Notes under the pieces: model-generated | The model's input: only the letters and a program-made list of their open reading frames with translations | The model's database searches: none | What the model was told of the DNA's origin: nothing | From: Patescibacteria group bacterium | GTDB taxonomy: Bacteria; Patescibacteriota; Minisyncoccia; Phycocordibacterales; Phycocordibacteraceae | NCBI GenBank assembly: GCA_019752595.1 | Contig: JAIELV010000001.1 | Span: forward strand, 726,240-790,239 | Reading direction: 5' to 3' | DNA: 64,000 nt | Program-made: the position numbers and the translations under genes | In this document: positions 6,179 to 59,420 of the stretch, one piece after another | Position numbering within the stretch: position 1 is the stretch's first letter | How the letters are laid out: every line of letters begins with the position of its first letter

Positions 6179-7444
6179 ATGAAAATCCCATTTATCGACG
6201 CTCAAGACAGTGAAGTTTCAAAAGCGATCCACGGCGAAGAGGAGCGGGAGAAAGAGGGACTAGAACTCATTCCGTCAGAAAACTACGTCTCAAAAGCAGT
6301 CCACGAGGCTCTTGGCTCCGTGATGACCAATAAATATTCGGAAGGGTATCCTGGTGCGCGCTACTACGGCGGGCAGATGTACACCGATATCGTCGAAAAC
6401 ATCGCTCGCGACCGCGCCAAGCAACTTTTCAATTGTAAATTCGCAAATGTGCAGCCACTTTCTGGTGCTCCTGCGAACGTTGCTACGTATTTCGCGCTTC
6501 TTCAGCCTGGCGACACTGTGCTTGGCATGGACCTCTCACACGGAGGCCATCTCACGCACGGGCATCCCGTGACGTACCTGACCAAGATTTTCAAATTCGT
6601 CCGTTACAAGATGAAAGATACAGCAACGGGTGAGATTGATTACGATGAAATGCTCGAAGTCGCGAAACGCGAGAAACCAAAAATTGTTCTCGCAGGCTAT
6701 TCTGCATATTCGCGCGAATTGGATTACGCAAAAATTTCCGCAATAGCAAAAGAAGTGGGGGCGGTTTCAATGATGGACGCCGCGCACATTGCAGGCTTGA
6801 TTGCTGGCAAGGCACATAAAAATCCTTTTGATTTTGGTATTGATATTGTCACGACCACAACACACAAAACACTTCGTGGCCCGCGCGGAGGAATGATTCT
6901 CACTCGTGACAATGAAGAGATCGCAAAGAAGATCGACAAATCGATTTTCCCTGGTTTTCAGGGCGGCCCGCACATGCACCAGATAGCTGGGAAAGCTGTC
7001 GCGTTTGGTGAAGCGCTTCACCCGTCGTTTCAGGTATACGCAACGCAGATTTTGAAGAATGCGAAAGCAATGGAAGCAGTCTTTGCGAGAGAAAACGTTC
7101 GCATGATTGCTGGTGGTACTTCAAACCACTTGATTCTTGCCGATGTGTTCGGCTCTCTGGGTGTGACTGGCGCTGATGCAGAGCGAGTGTTGGATGAAGT
7201 GGGTATTACCCTGAACAAAAATGCGATTGCAGATGATGTCAGAAAACCGATGGACCCGTCAGGAATCCGTTTCGGTACGCCTGCAATCACTACTCGTAAA
7301 TTTACTGAAAAAGAATGCGCGCGTGTCGCAGAGTTGATGATTGAGACACTGAGAAACAAAGACAACACAGATATGAAAACCAAAATTCGTGCAGAGATAA
7401 AAGAAATGGCTCTGGCATTTCCAATCCCTGAATCTTTTGTATAA
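6179..7444 (+). CDS. glyA: serine hydroxymethyltransferase
   Basis: LIPSENYVS..., SEGYPGARYYGG, PLP-lysine region TTTTHKTLRGPRGG. Confidence 0.92.
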   Translation: MKIPFIDAQDSEVSKAIHGEEEREKEGLELIPSENYVSKAVHEALGSVMTNKYSEGYPGARYYGGQMYTDIVENIARDRAKQLFNCKFANVQPLSGAPANVATYFALLQPGDTVLGMDLSHGGHLTHGHPVTYLTKIFKFVRYKMKDTATGEIDYDEMLEVAKREKPKIVLAGYSAYSRELDYAKISAIAKEVGAVSMMDAAHIAGLIAGKAHKNPFDFGIDIVTTTTHKTLRGPRGGMILTRDNEEIAKKIDKSIFPGFQGGPHMHQIAGKAVAFGEALHPSFQVYATQILKNAKAMEAVFARENVRMIAGGTSNHLILADVFGSLGVTGADAERVLDEVGITLNKNAIADDVRKPMDPSGIRFGTPAITTRKFTEKECARVAELMIETLRNKDNTDMKTKIRAEIKEMALAFPIPESFV

Positions 7445-7452
7445 TCCTGCGG

Positions 7453-7884
7453 ATGTACGAAATTAAGCGTGCAAAAAAACGGCACTGGGGCCGTATCAAG
7501 ACGCTTATAGAAGCAAATCCTGAGACGCTTGAACAAAAGTACTTGCCGAAGAGGAAAGAATTTTTCGTGGCGCTCGGTCCTCGTCCTGAAGAAGGAGGGA
7601 GGCGGCCTGTGGTGGGATGCGTGGCGCTTGAGGCTCATCATAAACAACGATTGGGGGAGTTACGTTCTCTTGCAGTTACAGAAGAAGAGCGAGGGAACGG
7701 TTTGGCGCGCGTGCTCATTGAACACACCCTCCTCCATGCTCGAAAACGGGGAGTGAAGCAGGTGCTGACGATCACGGGAAGTCCGGATATGTTTCGGAAA
7801 TTTGGTTTTGACTTTTTCCGCGCGGACGAAAAGTACGCTCTCATAAATGATTTACTTGCAAAAGAAGACGATCGCTCTTCATAA
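7453..7884 (+). CDS. GNAT family N-acetyltransferase
   Basis: Acetyl-CoA motif A RGNGLARVL and GNAT-like core. Confidence 0.7.
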   Translation: MYEIKRAKKRHWGRIKTLIEANPETLEQKYLPKRKEFFVALGPRPEEGGRRPVVGCVALEAHHKQRLGELRSLAVTEEERGNGLARVLIEHTLLHARKRGVKQVLTITGSPDMFRKFGFDFFRADEKYALINDLLAKEDDRSS

Positions 7885-7904
7885 TATTTTACATTCTGCG
7901 GGGA

Positions 7905-7932
7905 TTGACGCGCTGCTTTCGGTGCCTATAAT
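7905..7932 (+). promoter_or_regulatory. sigma70-type promoter TTGACG-16-TATAAT
   Basis: TTGACG 7905-7910, TATAAT 7927-7932; ATG of a 16-aa ORF 9 nt downstream. Confidence 0.5.
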
Positions 7933-7941
7933 AGAAATTAT

Positions 7942-7992
7942 ATGAAGCACGTCGCTTCCATCATCGTTCGTCGTCGCGGCCTCAGAGTTTGA
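7942..7992 (+). CDS. 16-aa micro-ORF MKHVASIIVRRRGLRV with three consecutive Arg codons; candidate leader peptide upstream of the Zn-finger ORF and argS
   Basis: promoter directly upstream, intrinsic terminator directly downstream. Confidence 0.35.
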   Translation: MKHVASIIVRRRGLRV

Positions 7993-8031
7993 GGTTGTCT
8001 GCGAGCATTGGTTCACTAAAACGAATACTTC

Positions 8032-8060
8032 CAAACGACCTCAAACGAGGTCGTTTTTGT
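8032..8060 (+). terminator. rho-independent terminator (CGACCTC-aaac-GAGGTCG + TTTTT)
   Basis: read directly. Confidence 0.6.
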
Positions 8061-8081
8061 TTATATCTCTAACCAAAAAAC

Positions 8082-8429
8082 ATGGAAAAGAAATTAAAGG
8101 ATATTTTTTCTCACGGAGAAGGAACCTCAACCTGCTTTCACTGCGGTAAGGCGGTACCGTGGGGTTCAACAGAATCAATTGAGTTCGGTTCGCATTTTTC
8201 TTTGTGGCCTTTCCACGAAAATTGTGTACCACTATATATCGGGCATCTTTTAGAACATATGGAACTTTCGGAGGGGAGCGCACTCTCAAACTTCAAGGAA
8301 AATCTTGAACGAACTTATGCGGCCTGTCTGTTCTGTGGAGGCCTGGTTCTGAAAGAAAGAGCAAAATCTATAGACGGAGGGTATGTGCACGTCACGGCAA
8401 AATGCCTAAAATATTTCCATATCCGCTAA
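8082..8429 (+). CDS. hypothetical Cys-rich (zinc-finger-like) protein, 115 aa
   Basis: CFHCGK...C...CLFCGG...C pattern; overlaps upstream of argS. Confidence 0.4.
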   Translation: MEKKLKDIFSHGEGTSTCFHCGKAVPWGSTESIEFGSHFSLWPFHENCVPLYIGHLLEHMELSEGSALSNFKENLERTYAACLFCGGLVLKERAKSIDGGYVHVTAKCLKYFHIR

Positions 8430-8455
8430 TGCGGACTGGTTGTATAGTGTCGCTT

Positions 8456-40678: not shown

Positions 40679-42735
40679 GAACGTTATGTGGTTTTCAAGC
40701 TTCCTCGCGGAAGTTTGAAGGGTGTATGGTGGATGCCTTGACTTTAAAGAGCGATGAAGGACGCAGCACGTCTGCGAAAAGTTTCGGGGAGCTGACGAGC
40801 AAGCTTCGATCCGAAAATATCCGAATGGGGAAACCCCTCGTACTCCGTACGAGATCTGTGGAGTGTTCTGCAGATGCGCACCTCGGGAAGTGAAACATCT
40901 CAGTACCGAGAGGAAAAGAAACCAACAGTACATCTCGGTCTCTGCACAAATTTATTTTGTACAGGGACCGGGATTCTGGAATTTCCCTAGTAGCGGCGAG
41001 CGAAAAGGAATCAGCCCAAACCGTATCAGCAATGGTGCGGGGTTGTAAGGCGATGGCGTTCCAATTTATTGGAAGAGAAGTTATCAAAAATATTGGTAGA
41101 AGAATCTGCTGGGAAGCAGAACCCTAGTGGGTAATAGTCCCGTATTCGAAATCAATATTTCTTCTTTGCCATCGATCTTGAGTAATCCGAGACACGAATA
41201 GCTTGGATGAATCCGCCGGAACTAACCGGCAAGGCTAAATATCTTTAAAGATCGATAGTGAACCAGTACCGTGAGGGAAAGGTGAAAAGCAGCCCGGAAG
41301 GGCAGTGAAATAGTTCTGAAACCATACATCTACAAAGAGTCGAAGAGGTCGCAAGACCTCGACGGCGTGCCTATTGAAGAATGAGCCGGCGAGTTTACGC
41401 ACACGGCAGGCTAAGGGGCGATCCCCCGGAGCCGTAGGGAAACCGAGTGTGAATAGCGCGTTAGTCGCGTGCGTAAGACCCGAAGCCAGGTGAGCTTGTC
41501 ATGAGCAGGGTGAACCACTCCGAAAGGAGTGGGGAGGCCCGAACCCGTTGGTCGTACAACGCCTTGGGATGACTTGTGACAAGGAGTGAAAAGCTTATCG
41601 AACCTGGTAATAGCTGGTTCTCTCCGAAATAGCTTTTGGGCTAGCGTCTGACGTTCCCTCTGGGGGTAGAGCACTGGAAGGGTCAAATAGGGAGCAATCT
41701 CGTTGACCCTATCAAACTCCGAATACCAGAGATTAAAAGTCAGGCAGTTAGACTACGGGCGCTAAGGTCCGTTAGTCGAGAAGGGAAGAGCCTAGATCTC
41801 AAGTTAAGGTCCCTAAATATGCGCTAAGTGCATCACAAGGAAGTTGAAGTTCTATGACAGTGAGGATGTTGGCTTAGAAGCAGCCACCATTTAAAGAAAG
41901 CGTAACAGCTCACTCATCGAGAACTTCTGCGCCGAAGATAATCGGGGCTAAGCGCGTTACCGAAACTGAGGAATTACAGAAGATCCGTCTTCTGTATTTG
42001 GTAGGAGAGCGTTCCAAACCGCAATGAAGGATAAGGGGTGACCCATTCTGGAGCGTTTGGAAGTGAGAATGCCGGCACAAGTAACCACAATGTGGGTGAG
42101 AACCCCACACGCCGAAAGAATGAGGTTTCCTTCGCACTGATGATCAGCGAAGGGTTAGTCGGGCCTAAGGGAATGGCGAAAGCCGCACCCGATGGACACA
42201 CGGTTAATATTCCGTGACTTAGTATGTATGCGATGGAGAGACGGAGTGCTGTATCTACTGCCCGTTACTGGATTTGGGTTCAATGCATGAGGATGTGACT
42301 TCAGGAAAATCCGGGTCACGCCAGTCCGAGTGTAGTGGAAATGTCCTGGTTCGCCAGGATAAATAGTAGAGAGCGCGCTTCCCAGAAAATCTTCTAAGCT
42401 TCAGTACATACAATCCGTACCGCAAACCGACACAGGTATTCAGGTCGAGTAGACCAAGGCGAACGAGTGAGAGGTCCTCAAGGAACTCGGCAAAATAGCG
42501 GCCGTAACTTTGGAATAAGGCCTGCCCTCTCTTAATTGAGGGGGCCGCAGCGAAAGATTCCCAACCGACTGTTTATCAAAAACACAGCTCCCTGCGAACT
42601 CGTAAGAGGATGTATAGGGGGTGACACCTGACCAATGCCAGAAGGTCAACTATGGGTGGTGCGTGGTAGCAATACTATGTGCTGACCTATATAAGCCCTG
42701 GTCAATGTCGGCGATAACTATAATCGTCCTAAGGT

Positions 42736-42955
42736 TTCCGTCTTGAGTAATCGAGGCGGGAAGGATTGGGACGATTGTAGAGATAAACAGAAATAAAAAT
42801 ACACTAAGTTACCTTACATGCAGTAATGCATGCGTAATCCAATCATGACCAACAAGAGACCAAATGTCATGCTCCTTCAATTTTGCAAAAGGTTTATCCT
42901 GAGCGAAGTCGAAGGATGAAGATAGAGTCCTTCGTACAATAAATAGGAATCGAAG
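42736..42955 (+). other. ~220-nt insertion in 23S between CCUAAGGU and AGCGUAAUUCC (E. coli ~1931; helix 69-71 region); intron or intervening sequence
   Basis: exon junction reconstructs the universally conserved CCUAAGGU|AGCGAAAUUCC; insert ends in G. Confidence 0.65.
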
Positions 42956-43583
42956 AGCGTAATTCCTTGTCTGGTAAGTTCAGACGTGCACGAATGGTGT
43001 AACGAGTTGGGAACTGTCTCGAGGACTTGCTCGGTGAAAATACAGTACCGGTGAAGATGCCGGTTACTCATAGTTAGACGAAAAGACCCCAGAAGCTTTA
43101 CTGTAGCTTCGTATTGGGATTATGATTCATCTGCGTAGAATAGATGGGAGAGGTTGAAGCATGGGTTTTGGCTCATGTGGACTCGTCAGTGCAATACCAT
43201 CCTTATGCGTCGTAATTTCTAACCTCTGGAAAACACCAGGGAGACAGTGCGTGGTAGGCAGTTTGAGTGGGGCGCTCTCCTCCAAAAAAGTAACGGAGGA
43301 GTCTACAAAGGTCAGCTAGGCGCGAATGGAAACCGTGCCGGTCGTGTAATGGCACAAGCTGGCTTAACTGCGAGACGTGAATGTCGAGCAGACACGAAAG
43401 TGGAGCATAGTGAACCGCTGATTCGCATTAGATGCGGTCAAAGATTATCTGATAAAAGTTACTCTGGGGATAACAGGCTAGTTCCGCCTAAGCGTCCATA
43501 GCGACGGCGGAGTTCGGCACCTCGATGTCGGCTCACCACATCCCGGAGCTGGAGAAGGTTCCAAGGGTATGGCTGTTCGCCAT

Positions 43584-43615
<32 letters not shown>

Positions 43616-44037
43616 TTAATTAGAGAAGGTGTTAGGGACTAGGTGCCAGGTGTTAGCTTTAAAGCTAAAACCTAGTACCTGGGAGCTAGAACCTTGTCTG
43701 TTAAGCAGTCTGAACCCGATTGAGAGAGAAAGTTGTTCAAATGAATATCAGGTTTTTTCGTCACAAAAAGAAACAGAACCAATCATCACGGCGGCGCATG
43801 TACGAAATTACATGACGCACCGATCAACATATATCGGGAAAATCCTGCAAAGGACAATTCCGAGGGAAGCACGGCAGCTTGCTAACGCAACTGCACTTGG
43901 ATTTTCTAGAACGGTTTACCGTTAAGAAAATCTCGGCGCCCGTAGAGACTGCACGTTGATTACCCGAAACGATTTGTAAAAGAATTGGAGGGTAAAGATA
44001 CAGTCCGATACTTTCGGTAACGAAAGCAAACACATTG
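43616..44037 (+). other. ~422-nt insertion in 23S between GGGUUCAGACCGU and CGUGAGACAGGUUGGUC (E. coli ~2590-2593, canonical group I intron site); intron or intervening sequence
   Basis: exon junction reconstructs conserved AGAACGU|CGUGAGACAG; insert ends in G; contains a 98-aa ORF without recognisable homing-endonuclease motifs. Confidence 0.65.
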
Positions 44038-44180
44038 CGTGAGACAGGTTGGTCTCCTATCTACTATGAGCGTTGATATTTGAGGAGAGTCGTCCTTAGT
44101 ACGAGAGGACCGGGATGAACTGACCTCTGGTCTACCTGCTGTTCCGCCAGGAGCATTGCAGGGTAGCTATGTCGGGAAGA

Positions 44181-44211
<31 letters not shown>

Positions 44212-44437
44212 TCCCTCCAAGATTAGATATCGTTAAGGCCCGTGAGAGATGATCACGTTGATAGGCTCAAGGTGTACATGTAGCAATACATTCAGCCGAA
44301 GAGTACTAATTCGCCGATTTTTGCGGGGAAGCATGAAAATCCATAACCCTGTTTTGTGCTCGATGTTCTCTATGTGAATGAAGTCTTAAATTGAAATAAT
44401 AAAATCTTCGTATTGAATGTTTTGTTTTGGTGGTTTG

Positions 44438-44531
44438 TCAGTGGGGCCACACCCGTTCTCATTCCGAACACGGCAGTTAAGCCCACCAGAGCCGATGGTA
44501 CTCGTAAGGGGAGAGTAGGCGACCGCCAGAA
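44438..44531 (+). rRNA. rrf: 5S ribosomal RNA
   Basis: CCGAACACGGCAGTTAAGC...GATGGTACTCG...GAGAGTAGG core. Confidence 0.85.
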
Positions 44532-57713: not shown

Positions 57714-57966
57714 GCCCATAGCGATCTTTGACAACTAAATAACCAATCTATCTGTAGCAATCAGATAGGTTGTGTACCACAAGTACAATTAAACCAAGTG
57801 TACTCATTAGACAGCTTAGGAGCGGTCTGATGAGTTAAGTGTTAAGTAACCAGTACCTTCCGGAGATGTAAAAATTTTCGTTAGGGAAAGTAACCAAGAG
57901 CTTTTGTTTTTCTTCTGTTCCGTCTGTTGATTCATGCATCTCAATTGAATGCATGAATCTTTACTG

Positions 57967-59420
57967 AGAGTTTGATCCTAGCTCAGGGTGAATGCTGGCG
58001 GCGTGGATAAGGCATGCAAGTCGAGTGGGTTTAGACCCACGGCAGACGAGGTAGTAACACGTAGGAACGTACCCCGAAGTCTGGGATATTCTGTCGAAAG
58101 ACAGCGCAATACCAGATGGTCTCTAAGGAGTAAAGATTTATCGCTTCGGGAGCGGCCTGCGCAATATCAGCTAGTTGGTGAGGTAATGGCTCACCAAGGC
58201 TATGACGTTTAGGGGAGCTGAGAGGCTGACCCCCACCGATGGAACTGAGATACGGTCCTTACTCCTACGGGAGGCCGCAGTCGAGAATCTTCCGCAATGG
58301 ACGAAAGTCTGACGGAGCGACGCCGCGTGGTGGATGAAGTCCCTCTGGGACGTAAACACCTTTTATAGGGGATGAAGTTTTGACAGTACCCTAAGAATAA
58401 GGGGCTCCTAACTCTGTGCCAGCAGGAGCGGTAATACAGAGGCCCCAAGCATTACCCGGAATCACTGGGCGTAAAGGGTGCGTAGGTGGCGTGATTAGTC
58501 CTTCTTTAAATTCTCCGGGCTCAACCCGGAGACTCGGAGGGAAACGGTCATGCTGGAGGGTGTACGAGGTGTGTAGAACTCTAGGTGTAGGGGTGAAATC
58601 CGTTGATATCTAGGGGAATACCGAATGCGAAGGCAGCACACTGGGACATTCCTGACACTGAGGCACGAAAGCGTGGGTAGCGAAAAGGATTAGATACCCT
58701 TGTAGTCCACGCCCTAAACTATGTTCTCTGGCTTTGAGGAGTATCGACCCTCTTCGAGGCGAAGCTAACGCGTTAAGAGAACCGCCTGGGTAGTACGATC
58801 GCAAGATTAAAACTCAAAGGAATAGACGGGAACTCGCACAAGTAGTGGATCATGTGGCTTAATTCGTAGGTAAGCGAAGAACCTTACCAAGACTTGAAAC
58901 CTAGCTGCACGGCCTCCGAAAGGAGATCAGCCTTCGAGGGTGCTAGGCAGGTGGTGCATGGTCGTCGTCAGTTCGTGGCTTGAGCTGTTCCCTTAAGTGG
59001 GGAAACGAACGCAACCCCCGTTGCCTGTTTTAAATGTCAGGCGAGACTGCTCCCTCACGGGAGAGGAAGGTGGGGATGACGCCAGATCAGCATGCCCCTC
59101 TGATGTCTTGGGCTGCACACGTGATACAATGGCAACAACAAAGAGACGCAAGACGGTAACGTGGAGCAAATCTCAAAATGTTGCCTCAGTACGGATTGAG
59201 GTCTGCAACCCGACCTCATGAAGCTGGAATTACTAGTAATCGTGGGTCAGCCATACCACGGTGAATACGTTCTCGAGTTTTGTACTCACCGCCCATCAAC
59301 TCAAGGGAGCCGGGAATACCCGACGCTCGCGTTTATCGCGGTCCACGGTAAGTTCGGTGACAGGGAGTAAGTTGTAACAAGGCACGGGTAGCGGAAGCTG
59401 CTCGTGGAACAATTCCATGA
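57967..59420 (+). rRNA. rrs: 16S ribosomal RNA (~1454 nt), not adjacent to 23S; 3' tail CAAUUCC instead of CACCUCC
   Basis: AGAGTTTGATCCTAGCTCAG 5' end; conserved 515/800/1400 regions; helix 45 GGAA loop; processing stem CTGTTCCGTCTGTT (57917) / AACAGACGGAACAG (59534). Confidence 0.9.

What the first reader, a model, noticed from the sequence alone, without database searches (positions are those of the whole stretch)
7905..8060. Promoter / 16-aa Arg-codon-run micro-ORF / terminator cassette upstream of argS
A TTGACG-16-TATAAT promoter drives a 16-codon ORF MKHVASIIVRRRGLRV containing CGT-CGT-CGC (three consecutive Arg codons). It is followed within 40 nt by a clean intrinsic terminator. Downstream lie a 115-aa zinc-finger ORF and then argS (arginyl-tRNA synthetase). 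A run of codons for the cognate amino acid in a short leader peptide followed by a terminator is the classic layout of ribosome-mediated attenuation. Here it would couple argS expression to charged tRNA-Arg availability. I could not identify a convincing alternative antiterminator pairing by eye, so this remains a hypothesis.
Basis: inference. Interest (0 to 1): 0.5.

Follow-up and report, generated by a model that had tools for sequence, protein, structure and literature searches.

The report
Arginine-codon leader-peptide transcription attenuator
A short conserved leader gene with three arginine codons, wired to a terminator/antiterminator RNA switch, probably lets this tiny symbiotic (Patescibacteria) bacterium turn on a small zinc-finger protein gene, and perhaps its arginyl-tRNA synthetase gene, when charged arginine tRNA runs low; the mechanism is textbook, but I found no description of it for arginine or for this phylum.

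Summary
The missing piece, an antiterminator, also exists: a 23-bp hairpin (7987-8046, about -24 kcal/mol; 0 of 1000 shuffles as stable). It contains the micro-ORF's stop codon in its 5' arm and sequesters the terminator's 5' arm.

Folding with a ribosome footprint on the Arg codons gives the antiterminator. A footprint on the stop codon gives the terminator.

The cassette occurs in five Paceibacteria genomes. In all five the peptide has invariant Arg-Arg-Arg. Variable sites in the ORF fall 3/3/11 by codon position, and there is one in-frame codon indel. All helices are kept, two of them with compensatory pairs.

In every genome the cassette precedes an orphan two-zinc-finger protein gene that lacks a promoter of its own. 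argS lies downstream in the four genomes where the contig reaches that far. But argS carries its own conserved leaderless promoter, and the closest relatives lack the cassette altogether.

Verdict: a well-supported classical ribosome-mediated attenuator with a leaderless leader ORF. Its primary target is the zinc-finger gene; control of argS is plausible but secondary. It is a new member of a known kind. No experiment exists.

A second cassette of the same design lies 3 kb downstream.

The parts
7905..7932 (+). Sigma-70-type promoter: -35 TTGACG (7905-7910), 16-nt spacer, -10 TATAAT (7927-7932). The expected transcription start is about 7939-7942.
   Evidence: 11 of 12 match. -35 TTGAC and -10 TAnnnT are kept at the same place in L001, L082 and L090; in L083 only the -10 lies on the contig. 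The distance from the -10 to the ATG is 7-9 nt in all five.
7942..7992 (+). Leaderless leader ORF of 16 codons plus a UGA stop: MKHVASIIVRRRGLRV.
   Evidence: Five orthologues of 16-17 codons; variable sites by codon position 3/3/11 (P = 0.008); one in-frame codon indel. L083 and L001 differ only at five third positions.
7969..7977 (+). Regulatory run of three Arg codons, CGT CGT CGC.
   Evidence: Arg-Arg-Arg is invariant in all five genomes, with synonymous CGT/CGC changes. CGC and CGT are the two commonest Arg codons of this genome.
7944..7958 (+). 5'-terminal hairpin H1 (GAAGC/GCUUC, 5 bp) that starts at the G of the AUG.
   Evidence: paired in 5 of 5 genomes, with one compensatory pair (G-C in 3, A-U in 2). 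Its role is unknown; transcript stability or control of leaderless initiation is inference.
7966..8006 (+). Hairpin A (regions 1:2, anti-antiterminator, possibly a pause hairpin). Its 5' arm contains the Arg codons; its 3' arm contains the stop codon.
   Evidence: 16 core pairs, 100% paired in five genomes. The third-position changes in the 5' arm keep pairing (C-G to U-G). Energy -12.4 to -19.6 kcal/mol in the four genomes folded.
7987..8046 (+). Hairpin B (regions 2:3, antiterminator): 23 bp, interrupted. GUUUGAGGUUGU (contains UGA 7990-7992) pairs with ACGACCUCAAAC, the 5' arm of the terminator.
   Evidence: -23.1 to -25.2 kcal/mol in the four genomes folded; it is the lowest-energy fold when a ribosome footprint covers the Arg codons. 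(0 of 2000 and 0 of 1000 shuffles reach it). (99% paired in five genomes; indels only in the loop).
8033..8062 (+). Hairpin C (regions 3:4): intrinsic terminator, stem 8033-8056, then a U-rich tract.
   Evidence: -14.2 to -16.3 kcal/mol in the four genomes folded; 9 pairs, 100% paired, one compensatory A-U to G-C.
8082..8429 (+). Orphan 115-aa protein with two Cys2-His-Cys zinc-finger-like modules. It is the first gene behind the attenuator and the presumed primary target.
   Evidence: only three 50%-identity clusters among about 15 billion proteins. All genomic copies found follow the leader. No -10 element near its ATG. No Pfam or NCBIfam family. AF2 model pLDDT 74, with no significant fold match.
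8443..8448 (+). argS's own -10 element, TATAGT, 7 nt before the ATG (leaderless argS mRNA).
   Evidence: TGTATAGT(G/A)TC plus 3-4 nt plus ATG is conserved in all nine relatives, with or without the cassette. The same geometry is seen at 19 or more of 46 genes in the window.
8456..10135 (+). argS (arginyl-tRNA synthetase), downstream on the same strand. No terminator lies between it and the zinc-finger gene.
   Evidence: (three ArgRS Pfam domains), (no good terminator on the + strand in 8060-8860).

Best explanation
This is a classical ribosome-mediated transcription attenuator of the trp/his/pheST type, built on a leaderless leader ORF.

Transcription starts about 7 nt after TATAAT, so the RNA begins at or just before the AUG. 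A 70S ribosome translates the 16-codon ORF while RNA polymerase moves on.

When Arg-tRNA(Arg) is plentiful, the ribosome runs to the UGA stop codon (7990-7992). That codon lies inside the 5' arm of the antiterminator, so the ribosome blocks the arm. If the ribosome has already left, hairpin A re-forms and has the same effect. The terminator (8033-8056 plus the U-tract) then folds, and a transcript of about 120 nt is released.

When Arg-tRNA(Arg) is scarce, the ribosome stalls on CGU-CGU-CGC (7969-7977). It covers the 5' arm of hairpin A but leaves 7987-7998 free. That segment pairs with 8035-8046 as soon as it is transcribed, forming hairpin B. The terminator cannot form, and polymerase reads into the zinc-finger protein gene and on towards argS.

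Shown by computation: the parts, their mutual exclusivity, their conservation, and coding-type selection on the ORF. Inferred: the actual stalling, the coupling of transcription to translation, the response to arginine, and any effect on argS.
For: 1. Anatomy. Promoter, ORF and terminator are as described.

2. Three mutually exclusive hairpins, measured in the four genomes folded: A (-12 to -20 kcal/mol), B (-23 to -25) and C (-14 to -16). The free full-length RNA folds as A plus C.
- With a 28-nt footprint whose A-site is on Arg codon 1, 2 or 3, B is the lowest-energy fold in the window.
- In transcripts cut at the terminator loop, the same holds for all four genomes tested.
- With the footprint on the stop codon, B cannot form.

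3. The pairing of B is far beyond chance. Duplex energy is -17.3 against -8.1 +/- 1.9 in shuffles (0 of 2000 reach it). The hairpin is -23.5 against -9.9 +/- 2.6 (0 of 1000).

4. Conservation in five genomes (window, L083, L001, L082, L090).
- RRR and the UGA stop are invariant.
- Variable sites fall 3/3/11 by codon position, with an in-frame indel of one codon.
- L083 and L001 differ at five sites, all third positions, and at none in the following 84 nt.
- H1, A and C are 100% paired with two compensatory pairs; B is 99% paired, with indels only in its loop.

5. The non-coding 3' part of the leader stays 84-95% identical while glyA third positions are only 44-56% identical.

6. Leaderless, SD-independent translation is the rule in this genome. 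Only 1 of 46 genes has an SD-like motif, 19 or more of 46 have TAnnnT 4-11 nt before the ATG, and the 16S anti-SD core is lost.

7. The gene behind the terminator has no promoter of its own. The leader and that gene co-occur 5 of 5 times, including one copy found independently through a remote protein homologue.

8. argS follows on the same strand in the four genomes where the contig extends far enough.

9. A second cassette of the same design, with the stop codon inside the 5' arm of the antiterminator, lies at 11121-11262 and is conserved in eight relatives.

10. Precedents exist: attenuators in front of pheST, trpS, leuS and hisS paralogues (PMC1262725, PMC2965389); sensing through Arg codons (PMC6386406); leaderless sensory short ORFs (bioRxiv 10.1101/834739).
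Against: - There is no experimental data of any kind.
- Only five sequences from one narrow clade are available, and two of them are close relatives.
- Hairpin B is almost invariant, so it has no covariation support. Its support is energy, shuffles and conservation.
- Every base of regions 1-4 is locked by overlapping pairings. The invariance of the Arg codons therefore cannot be cleanly separated from RNA-structure constraint.
- The rest of the peptide is also fairly conserved (MKH..S.IV...GL.V), which the classical model does not require.
- At equilibrium on the full-length RNA, with the ribosome on the Arg codons, the terminator still wins in L082 and L001. In ribosome-free truncated transcripts B outcompetes A. 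The switch therefore has to be kinetic, and termination in Arg-replete cells depends on a ribosome sitting at or near the stop codon.
- argS has its own promoter, and the closest relatives lack the cassette. Control of argS is thus dispensable and unproven.
- Transcription-translation coupling and intrinsic termination have not been characterised in Patescibacteria.
Confidence: 0.68

Rival explanations
1. A stand-alone small gene. The cassette simply encodes a functional 16-aa basic peptide and/or a roughly 120-nt small RNA, with its own promoter and terminator. The zinc-finger gene and argS are expressed only by incidental read-through, and arginine is not sensed.
For: - The peptide is conserved beyond RRR.
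- The default product of the free RNA is a terminated, stable, highly structured transcript (z = -4.7).
- A second conserved leaderless micro-ORF, also with a basic C-terminus (...KRRG), exists nearby.
- Released attenuator RNAs and leader peptides can act in trans in other bacteria (trpL of Sinorhizobium; abstracts listed).
Against: - A plain small gene does not need a 23-bp hairpin that contains its own stop codon and sequesters half of its terminator.
- It also does not need near-invariance of 70 nt of 3' untranslated sequence.
- The downstream gene has no promoter of its own and always travels with the cassette.
- A trans function could exist in addition to attenuation without replacing it.
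Confidence: 0.12
2. A nascent-peptide (arrest-peptide) sensor. The conserved peptide stalls the ribosome in response to a small molecule such as free arginine, or to some other signal, as TnaC, SpeFL or the fungal arginine attenuator peptide do. That stall, rather than shortage of charged tRNA, sets the choice between hairpins.
For: - Peptide conservation beyond the Arg run, and conservative substitutions only (V/L/I, A/V).
- The stop codon is embedded in the switch, so a release defect at UGA would favour termination.
Against: - From my own knowledge of their sequences (not tested here), the peptide shows no similarity to known arrest peptides.
- At 16 residues it barely spans the exit tunnel.
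- The spacing between the Arg codons and the hairpin arms is exactly that of hunger-codon attenuators.
- Part of the peptide conservation is explained by RNA constraints. For example, the K2 and A5/V5 codons covary as a base pair of hairpin H1.
Confidence: 0.08
3. Protein- or tRNA-mediated attenuation. A trans factor binds the invariant 7993-8046 RNA and chooses between the antiterminator and the terminator. The factor could be the zinc-finger protein acting in autoregulation, ArgRS, or uncharged tRNA-Arg. The micro-ORF would be secondary.
For: - Sequence conservation of regions 2-3 is greater than base-pairing alone strictly needs.
- The downstream protein has nucleic-acid-binding-like zinc fingers, with weak resemblance to C2H2 fingers and to eL24.
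- Autoregulatory leaders are common for RNA-binding proteins (PMC2965389).
Against: - No T-box or any other Rfam family is found, even at E <= 10.
- This model does not explain the coding-type substitution pattern, the in-frame indel, or the stop codon placed inside the antiterminator arm.
- The overlap of three pairings already explains the invariance.
Confidence: 0.07
4. A chance juxtaposition of a promoter-like site, a short ORF and the terminator of an upstream gene.
For: The number of promoter-like sites is not enriched in the region. Short ORFs are everywhere.
Against: - The whole unit is conserved in five genomes whose synonymous sites are nearly saturated.
- It sits in two different positions relative to the GNAT gene.
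- A promoter lies between the upstream gene (GNAT in the window, glyA in L082 and L090) and the hairpin, so the hairpin is not that gene's terminator.
Confidence: 0.01

Closest known systems
Classical leader-peptide attenuators of amino-acid operons (E. coli trpL, hisL, pheL, thrL, leuL; Rfam leader families)
   Same: A short leader ORF with a run of codons for the sensed amino acid. Regions 1-4 form anti-antiterminator, antiterminator and intrinsic terminator. The stop codon is placed so that a ribosome which finishes the ORF blocks region 2.
   Different: - The leader ORF has no SD and is leaderless.
- It senses Arg, for which I found no classical attenuator.
- It shows no sequence or covariance-model similarity to any Rfam leader.
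- The host is a Patescibacteria lineage; my own knowledge of the phylum, not tested here, is that it lacks amino-acid biosynthesis.
- The regulated gene is not biosynthetic.
Leader-peptide attenuators of aminoacyl-tRNA synthetase genes: pheST (gamma-proteobacteria), trpS and leuS (Streptomyces), hisS paralogues (Bacillus)
   Same: The cognate-codon leader peptide plus terminator lies upstream of a synthetase gene (PMC1262725; PMC2965389).
   Different: Here the synthetase is not the first gene behind the terminator, keeps its own promoter, and lacks the cassette in the nearest relatives. The amino acid and the phylum are different.
Polycysteine leaderless short ORFs of mycobacteria (Cys-responsive attenuators)
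   Same: A leaderless sensory short ORF is the first cistron. Ribosome stalling at a codon run remodels downstream RNA structure and turns on operon genes (bioRxiv 10.1101/834739).
   Different: [quoted passage not shown] Here the output element is an intrinsic terminator.
Salmonella speF leader orf34 (SpeFL)
   Same: Consecutive Arg codons in an upstream ORF report arginine supply through ribosome pausing and alternative mRNA folds (PMC6386406).
   Different: orf34 acts through Rho, RBS unmasking and RNase G sensitivity, and also senses ornithine. It has no intrinsic terminator/antiterminator pair and no sequence relation to this element.
T-box riboswitches upstream of argS and arg genes in Firmicutes
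   Same: The same physiological logic: synthetase or amino-acid genes respond to tRNA-Arg charging through a terminator/antiterminator choice (PMC1262725).
   Different: There is no Stem I, specifier loop or T-box motif, and no Rfam T-box match even at E <= 10. The sensor here is a translating ribosome, not direct tRNA binding.

Membership tests
Classical ribosome-mediated (leader-peptide) transcription attenuator | A short translated leader ORF at the 5' end of the transcript. | tested here: met
   A 16-17-codon ORF is conserved in five genomes. Variable sites fall 3/3/11 by codon position and there is an in-frame codon indel. The start context matches this genome's leaderless genes. Translation itself has not been observed.
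Classical ribosome-mediated (leader-peptide) transcription attenuator | A run of codons for the regulatory amino acid within the leader ORF. | tested here: met
   Arg-Arg-Arg is invariant in 5 of 5 genomes, with synonymous CGT/CGC variation. The chance expectation is about 0.0013 per ORF.
Classical ribosome-mediated (leader-peptide) transcription attenuator | An intrinsic terminator between the leader ORF and the first structural gene. | tested here: met
   A stem of 9-10 bp plus a U-tract at 8033-8062, with a compensatory A-U to G-C change.
Classical ribosome-mediated (leader-peptide) transcription attenuator | An antiterminator mutually exclusive with the terminator, and an upstream hairpin (1:2) mutually exclusive with the antiterminator. 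| tested here: met
   Hairpins A, B and C share arms. B exceeds 0 of 1000-2000 shuffles. All are kept in five genomes. There is no covariation in B.
Classical ribosome-mediated (leader-peptide) transcription attenuator | Geometry: a ribosome stalled on the regulatory codons frees region 2, and a ribosome at the stop codon masks it. | tested here: met
   Footprint-masked folds. The last Arg codon ends 10 nt before B starts, and UGA lies inside B's 5' arm. At full-length equilibrium only 2 of 4 genomes favour B, so kinetics must be invoked.
Classical ribosome-mediated (leader-peptide) transcription attenuator | Read-through rises when the cognate charged tRNA is limiting. | not testable with these tools
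   This needs in vitro coupled transcription-translation or reporter assays.
Classical ribosome-mediated (leader-peptide) transcription attenuator | The regulated genes are functionally linked to the sensed amino acid. | tested here: inconclusive
   argS follows in 4 of 4 genomes where the contig extends far enough, but it has its own promoter. The first gene is an orphan zinc-finger protein of unknown function. In L082 an AstE/AspA-family deacylase gene also lies behind the leader.
T-box riboswitch (RF00230) | Stem I with a specifier loop and the conserved T-box sequence in the antiterminator; a match to the Rfam covariance model. | tested here: not met
   No T-box hit in 7800-8500 even at E <= 10, and none at gathering score in the window.
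Any described RNA family (Rfam 15, including the His, Leu, Thr, Trp and Phe leaders) | A covariance-model match. | tested here: not met
   only two chance-level hits (AsxR at E = 3.9, a nematode snoRNA at E = 5.9).
Leaderless sensory short-ORF attenuators (mycobacterial Cys type) | A leaderless short ORF with a codon run as the first cistron; stalling unmasks the RBS of the next gene. | tested here: inconclusive
   The first part is met. The output differs: here it is a terminator, with no SD or RBS to unmask, since the genome is SD-less.

The most novel reading that the evidence does not exclude
The cassette is one of at least two leaderless leader-ORF attenuators in this genome. The Arg leader is at 7905-8062. 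A second, Thr/Ile/Lys-rich leader is at 11121-11262. Each switches on a small, otherwise unknown zinc-finger protein gene that has no promoter of its own.

On this reading, a clade of amino-acid-auxotrophic Paceibacteria uses ribosome stalling as its direct gauge of amino-acid supply from its surroundings. It answers with dedicated small zinc-finger effectors that act on translation, on ArgRS/tRNA or on RNA, rather than with biosynthetic enzymes. The abundant terminated leader RNA or peptide may in addition act in trans.
Probability: 0.25. Interest if true: 0.65.

Novelty: new member of a known kind. Interest (0 to 1): 0.5.

Why it matters
Very little is known about gene regulation in Patescibacteria (the CPR). 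A search of the held literature for 'Candidate Phyla Radiation' together with 'transcription attenuation' returned nothing.

If confirmed, the element would show three things. First, transcription and translation are coupled in these reduced-genome bacteria. Second, leaderless mRNAs can drive a classical terminator/antiterminator switch. Third, the cell monitors arginine supply through tRNA charging.

It would add arginine to the amino acids sensed by leader-peptide attenuation. It would also give a functional handle, induction by Arg starvation, on an orphan zinc-finger protein family.

The regulatory principle itself is textbook, so the gain is in breadth and not a new concept.

Tried and rejected
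- Known RNA families. An Rfam scan of the window at gathering score and of 7800-8500 at E <= 10 gave no leader, T-box, riboswitch or sRNA family. No tRNA or tmRNA is present.
- A gene on the opposite strand. The 51-aa minus-strand ORF 7879-8034 was rejected. The variable sites fall on its first codon positions, and its length is not conserved in L001 (inference).
- A repeated or mobile element. There is no second copy in the window or in 89 loci by blastn, nhmmer or the covariance model R1. Two conserved 22-27-nt patterns have no match in IMG/VR viral contigs. The metagenome scan returned only a duplicate of L001.
- An Arg leader as a general feature of Paceibacteria argS genes. It was rejected. 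A scan for ATG-started micro-ORFs with 3 or more consecutive Arg codons within 1.5 kb upstream of argS in 88 loci found only the known copies plus chance hits inside coding regions.
- Function of the zinc-finger protein. Nothing is assignable.
  - There is no Pfam or NCBIfam family.
  - PDB sequence hits are only weak matches to C2H2 fingers.
  - Foldseek gave no match better than E = 0.2.
  - The afdb50 library was not available.
- Equilibrium folding alone as the test. It was insufficient, because in L082 and L001 the terminator remains the lowest-energy fold even with the Arg codons masked. Truncated (co-transcriptional) folds were used as well.
- The second cassette as a negative control. 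I first took it for a plain small gene, because full-length masked folds always gave the terminator. Truncated folds then showed a conserved antiterminator there too.
Full report
**The observation**

- The promoter is TTGACG (7905-7910), a 16-nt spacer, and TATAAT (7927-7932). It matches 11 of 12 positions and is the best promoter-like site in 6500-10500.
- The ORF runs from ATG 7942 to TGA 7990-7992 and encodes MKHVASIIVRRRGLRV. CGT CGT CGC lie at 7969-7977.
- The best terminator-like site of the region is a stem at 8033-8056 (10 pairs, loop of 4) followed by a T-run. It starts 40 nt after the stop codon.
- A 115-aa Cys/His-rich ORF (8082-8429) and argS (8456-10135, three ArgRS Pfam domains) follow.

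The 127-nt RNA folds much better than shuffles: -42.9 kcal/mol, z = -4.7. No Rfam family matches, even at E <= 10.

There is no Shine-Dalgarno sequence, and the ATG lies only 9 nt behind the -10 hexamer.

**The organism and its translation style**

ArgS and the 115-aa protein place the window in a Patescibacteria (Paceibacteria/Parcubacteria) genome; the NCBI locus tag is K2P56_04425 on an 831-kb contig.

Shine-Dalgarno-dependent initiation appears to be lost.
- Only 1 of 46 long ORFs in the window has an SD-like motif.
- At least 19 of 46 have a TAnnnT hexamer 4-11 nt (mostly 6-7 nt) before the ATG.
- The 16S rRNA ends in GGAACAAUUCCAUG, where the consensus is GGAUCACCUCCUUU. The anti-SD core is gone.

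Leaderless mRNAs are therefore the norm here. A micro-ORF that starts 9 nt after TATAAT fits the way ordinary genes of this genome are expressed.

**The missing antiterminator**

The 3' half of the first large hairpin is GUUUGAGGUUGU (7987-7998). It contains the UGA stop codon. It is complementary to ACGACCUCAAAC (8035-8046), the 5' arm of the terminator. The pairing extends into an interrupted 23-bp hairpin (7987-8046) of -23.5 to -25.2 kcal/mol.

Three hairpins therefore share arms:
- A, 7966-8006: the Arg codons lie in its 5' arm and the stop codon in its 3' arm.
- B, 7987-8046: the antiterminator.
- C, 8033-8056: the terminator.

The folding results are as follows.
- The free full-length RNA folds as A plus C.
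- With a 28-nt ribosome footprint whose A-site is on Arg codon 1, 2 or 3, the lowest-energy fold is B.
- With the footprint on the stop codon, B is impossible and C forms.
- In transcripts cut at the terminator loop, which is the situation just before the termination decision, B forms in all four genomes tested when the ribosome is on the Arg codons, and does not form when it is on the stop codon.

The B pairing is not chance. None of 2000 dinucleotide shuffles of the upstream segment pairs as well with the terminator arm (-17.3 against -8.1 +/- 1.9). None of 1000 shuffles gives as stable a hairpin.

There are caveats. At full-length equilibrium the terminator still wins in L082 and L001. Without a ribosome, B outcompetes A in truncated transcripts. 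The switch must therefore work kinetically, as it does in trp.

**Conservation**

nhmmer and blastn against fetched loci found the element in L083, L001 and L082. L084, the only hit of the metagenome pattern scan, is the same contig as L001. A fifth copy, in L090, was found independently through a remote homologue (P0127) of the 115-aa protein.

| Genome | Leader peptide |
|---|---|
| window | MKHVASIIVRRRGLRV |
| L083 | MKHLVSVIVRRRGLIV |
| L001 | MKHLVSVIVRRRGLIV |
| L082 | MKHVASIIIVRRRGLIV |
| L090 | MKHIASITIVRRRGLII |

- Arg-Arg-Arg and the UGA stop are invariant.
- Variable sites fall 3/3/11 by codon position (binomial P = 0.008), and the only indel is one codon.
- L083 and L001 differ at five sites in the element. 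All five are third positions of the ORF, and the next 84 nt show no difference.
- The -35 TTGAC and the -10 TAnnnT are kept where the contig reaches them, 7-9 nt before the ATG.
- Helices H1, A and C are paired in 100% of cells, with two compensatory pairs. B is paired in 99% of cells, and all indels fall in its loop.
- The non-coding 3' part stays 84-95% identical, while glyA third positions in the same genomes are only 44-56% identical.

This near-invariance is what overlapping pairings predict. It also means that B has no covariation support. The Arg codons lie in the 5' arm of A, so they cannot be fully separated from structural constraint.

**What is regulated**

The nearest relatives have tmk-glyA-GNAT-argS with only 24-33 nt between GNAT and argS, or glyA-argS directly in L086. 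None carries the cassette. They are L081 (ArgS 89% identical), L085, L086, L087/L088 and L089. The element is also absent from about 80 more distant Paceibacteria argS loci.

All nine close relatives keep TGTATAGT(G/A)TC 3-4 nt before the argS ATG. This is argS's own leaderless promoter.

The 115-aa gene has no -10 element near its start. It belongs to a family with only three 50%-identity clusters among about 15 billion proteins. It is found behind the leader in 5 of 5 genomes.

The arrangement varies between genomes.
- In the window, L083 and L001 the order is leader, zinc-finger gene, argS. In the window the leader follows the GNAT gene.
- In L082 it is glyA, leader, ORF105, an AstE/AspA-like deacylase gene, the zinc-finger gene, GNAT, argS.
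- In L090 it is glyA, leader, zinc-finger gene, and then the contig ends.

No good terminator separates the zinc-finger gene from argS.

The primary target is therefore the zinc-finger gene. argS is co-directional and could receive read-through transcripts, but it does not depend on them.

The function of the zinc-finger protein remains unknown. It has two Cys2-His-Cys modules (invariant C18, C21, H45, C48 and C82, C85, H103, C108). The AF2 model has pLDDT 74. Only weak resemblance to generic treble-clef, C2H2 or eL24 fingers was found.

**Mechanism**

The best-supported reading is classical ribosome-mediated attenuation on a leaderless leader ORF.
- With ample Arg-tRNA, the ribosome reaches UGA and masks the 5' arm of B. 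The terminator forms, and a transcript of about 120 nt is released.
- With scarce Arg-tRNA, the ribosome stalls at codons 10-12 and covers the 5' arm of A. B forms, and polymerase reads into the zinc-finger gene and on towards argS.

The anatomy, mutual exclusivity, conservation and coding selection are shown by computation. The stalling, the coupling, the arginine response and any effect on argS are inferred.

Rivals, with my probabilities:
- a stand-alone small peptide or sRNA gene (0.12);
- a nascent-peptide sensor (0.08);
- protein- or tRNA-mediated attenuation (0.07);
- chance (0.01).

**Comparison with what is known**

- Leader-peptide attenuators precede pheST in gamma-proteobacteria and trpS and leuS in Streptomyces (PMC1262725).
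- They also precede hisS paralogues in bacilli (PMC2965389).
- Two consecutive Arg codons in Salmonella orf34 report arginine, through RNA refolding and RNase G (PMC6386406).
- Leaderless poly-Cys short ORFs in mycobacteria are Cys-responsive attenuators that act on translation (bioRxiv 10.1101/834739).
- Arginine genes in Firmicutes use T-boxes (PMC1262725).

In the searchable library I found no Arg-codon terminator/antiterminator attenuator, no attenuator in front of argS, and none in Patescibacteria. That library is incomplete, so this is not proof of absence.

The element is a new member of a known kind. It has a new sequence family, a new amino acid and a new phylum. It combines a leaderless leader ORF with an intrinsic terminator.

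**A second cassette**

A genome-style scan of the window looked for a -10 element, a short ORF and a strong terminator together. It found exactly two hits: the Arg leader and one at 11121-11262.

- The second cassette reads TTGACA, 17 nt, TACAAT, 5 nt, ATG, followed by the ORF MSGFAVITTIKKTTAKRRG and then a strong terminator.
- Behind it lies a 78-aa gene with a CxxCxG zinc-finger-like motif and no promoter of its own.
- It is conserved in eight relatives, with in-frame length variation.
- Its last codons, its stop codon and UUGUC pair with GACAA and GCCCCC, the 5' arm of its terminator. This pairing forms in truncated folds of all eight sequences.

The design is the same, which supports the idea that this lineage uses leaderless leader-ORF attenuators. 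Its regulatory amino acid is unclear.

**Verdict**

The attenuation hypothesis is well supported computationally (confidence about 0.68). The claim that the element regulates argS is only partly supported. Interest is moderate (0.5): a textbook mechanism in an unexpected lineage, for a new amino acid, in front of an orphan gene.

Noticed in passing
window 11121-11262 (next gene 11288-11524): A second cassette of the same design: TTGACA-17-TACAAT-5-ATG, a 19-codon leaderless ORF MSGFAVITTIKKTTAKRRG, and the strong terminator AAAAGCCCCCAAATGGGGGCTTTT. A 78-aa gene with a CxxCxG zinc-finger-like motif and no promoter of its own follows. The cassette is conserved in eight relatives, with peptide pattern ..A(I/V)(I/T)T(T/I)(T/I)KKT..KRRG. 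In truncated folds of all eight, the last codons, the stop codon and UUGUC pair with the 5' arm of the terminator. It is probably another leader-ORF attenuator. Its regulatory amino acid is unknown; ileS lies 1 kb downstream.
   Followed up: partly
window 59406-59419 (16S rRNA 3' end) and gene starts throughout the window: The 16S rRNA tail reads GGAACAAUUCCAUG where the consensus is GGAUCACCUCCUUU, so the anti-Shine-Dalgarno core is lost. Only 1 of 46 genes has an SD-like motif, and 19 or more of 46 have a TAnnnT hexamer 4-11 nt before the ATG. The genome appears to rely largely on leaderless, SD-independent initiation.
   Followed up: partly
window 8440-8455, and the same position in L001, L081-L083 and L085-L089: The motif TGTATAGT(G/A)TC sits 3-4 nt before the argS ATG in all nine relatives, whatever gene lies upstream. 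It is probably argS's own leaderless promoter; no conserved -35 was seen.
   Followed up: partly
window 40706-44531 and 57960-59419: The rRNA genes are unlinked. 23S (3622 nt, about 700 nt longer than the 2925-nt model, with no ORF of 130 aa or more in the inserts) and 5S lie together. 16S lies 13 kb downstream on the same strand. No tRNA gene occurs in the 64 kb.
   Followed up: no
window 7453-7884, and relatives L081, L082, L085, L087-L089: A small GNAT acetyltransferase, weakly similar to ArgA-type amino-acid N-acetyltransferases but below NCBIfam cut-offs, is syntenic with argS (tmk-glyA-GNAT-argS) in most close relatives (not L086). This hints at an arginine-related role in a lineage that, to my knowledge, lacks arginine biosynthesis.
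   Followed up: no
L082 1546-3059: In this relative the Arg leader is followed by an unassigned 105-aa ORF and a 333-aa AstE/AspA-family (succinylglutamate desuccinylase/aspartoacylase-like) gene, ahead of the zinc-finger gene, GNAT and argS. A zinc deacylase or carboxypeptidase-like enzyme under an Arg-starvation switch could serve arginine salvage; this is speculation.
   Followed up: no
L083 1-75 compared with L001 47-121: These two close relatives differ at 5 of 17 third positions in the micro-ORF and throughout the promoter region. In the 115-codon zinc-finger gene they differ at only 8 of 345 nt, 3 of them third positions. This suggests a recombination breakpoint inside the leader.
   Followed up: no
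window 8421-8436: A 5-bp hairpin (UCCGC-UAAU-GCGGA) contains the stop codon of the zinc-finger gene and is identical in L083 and L001. No U-tract follows, so it is not a terminator. Its significance is unknown.
   Followed up: no
window 10221-10745 (- strand) and 10646-11134: Between argS and ileS lies a string of small ORFs (65-78 aa) with their own TATAGT-N7-ATG starts, and a minus-strand ORF with a weak DnaA C-terminal helix-turn-helix match. Relatives have similar arrays of 61-88-aa genes there.
   Followed up: no
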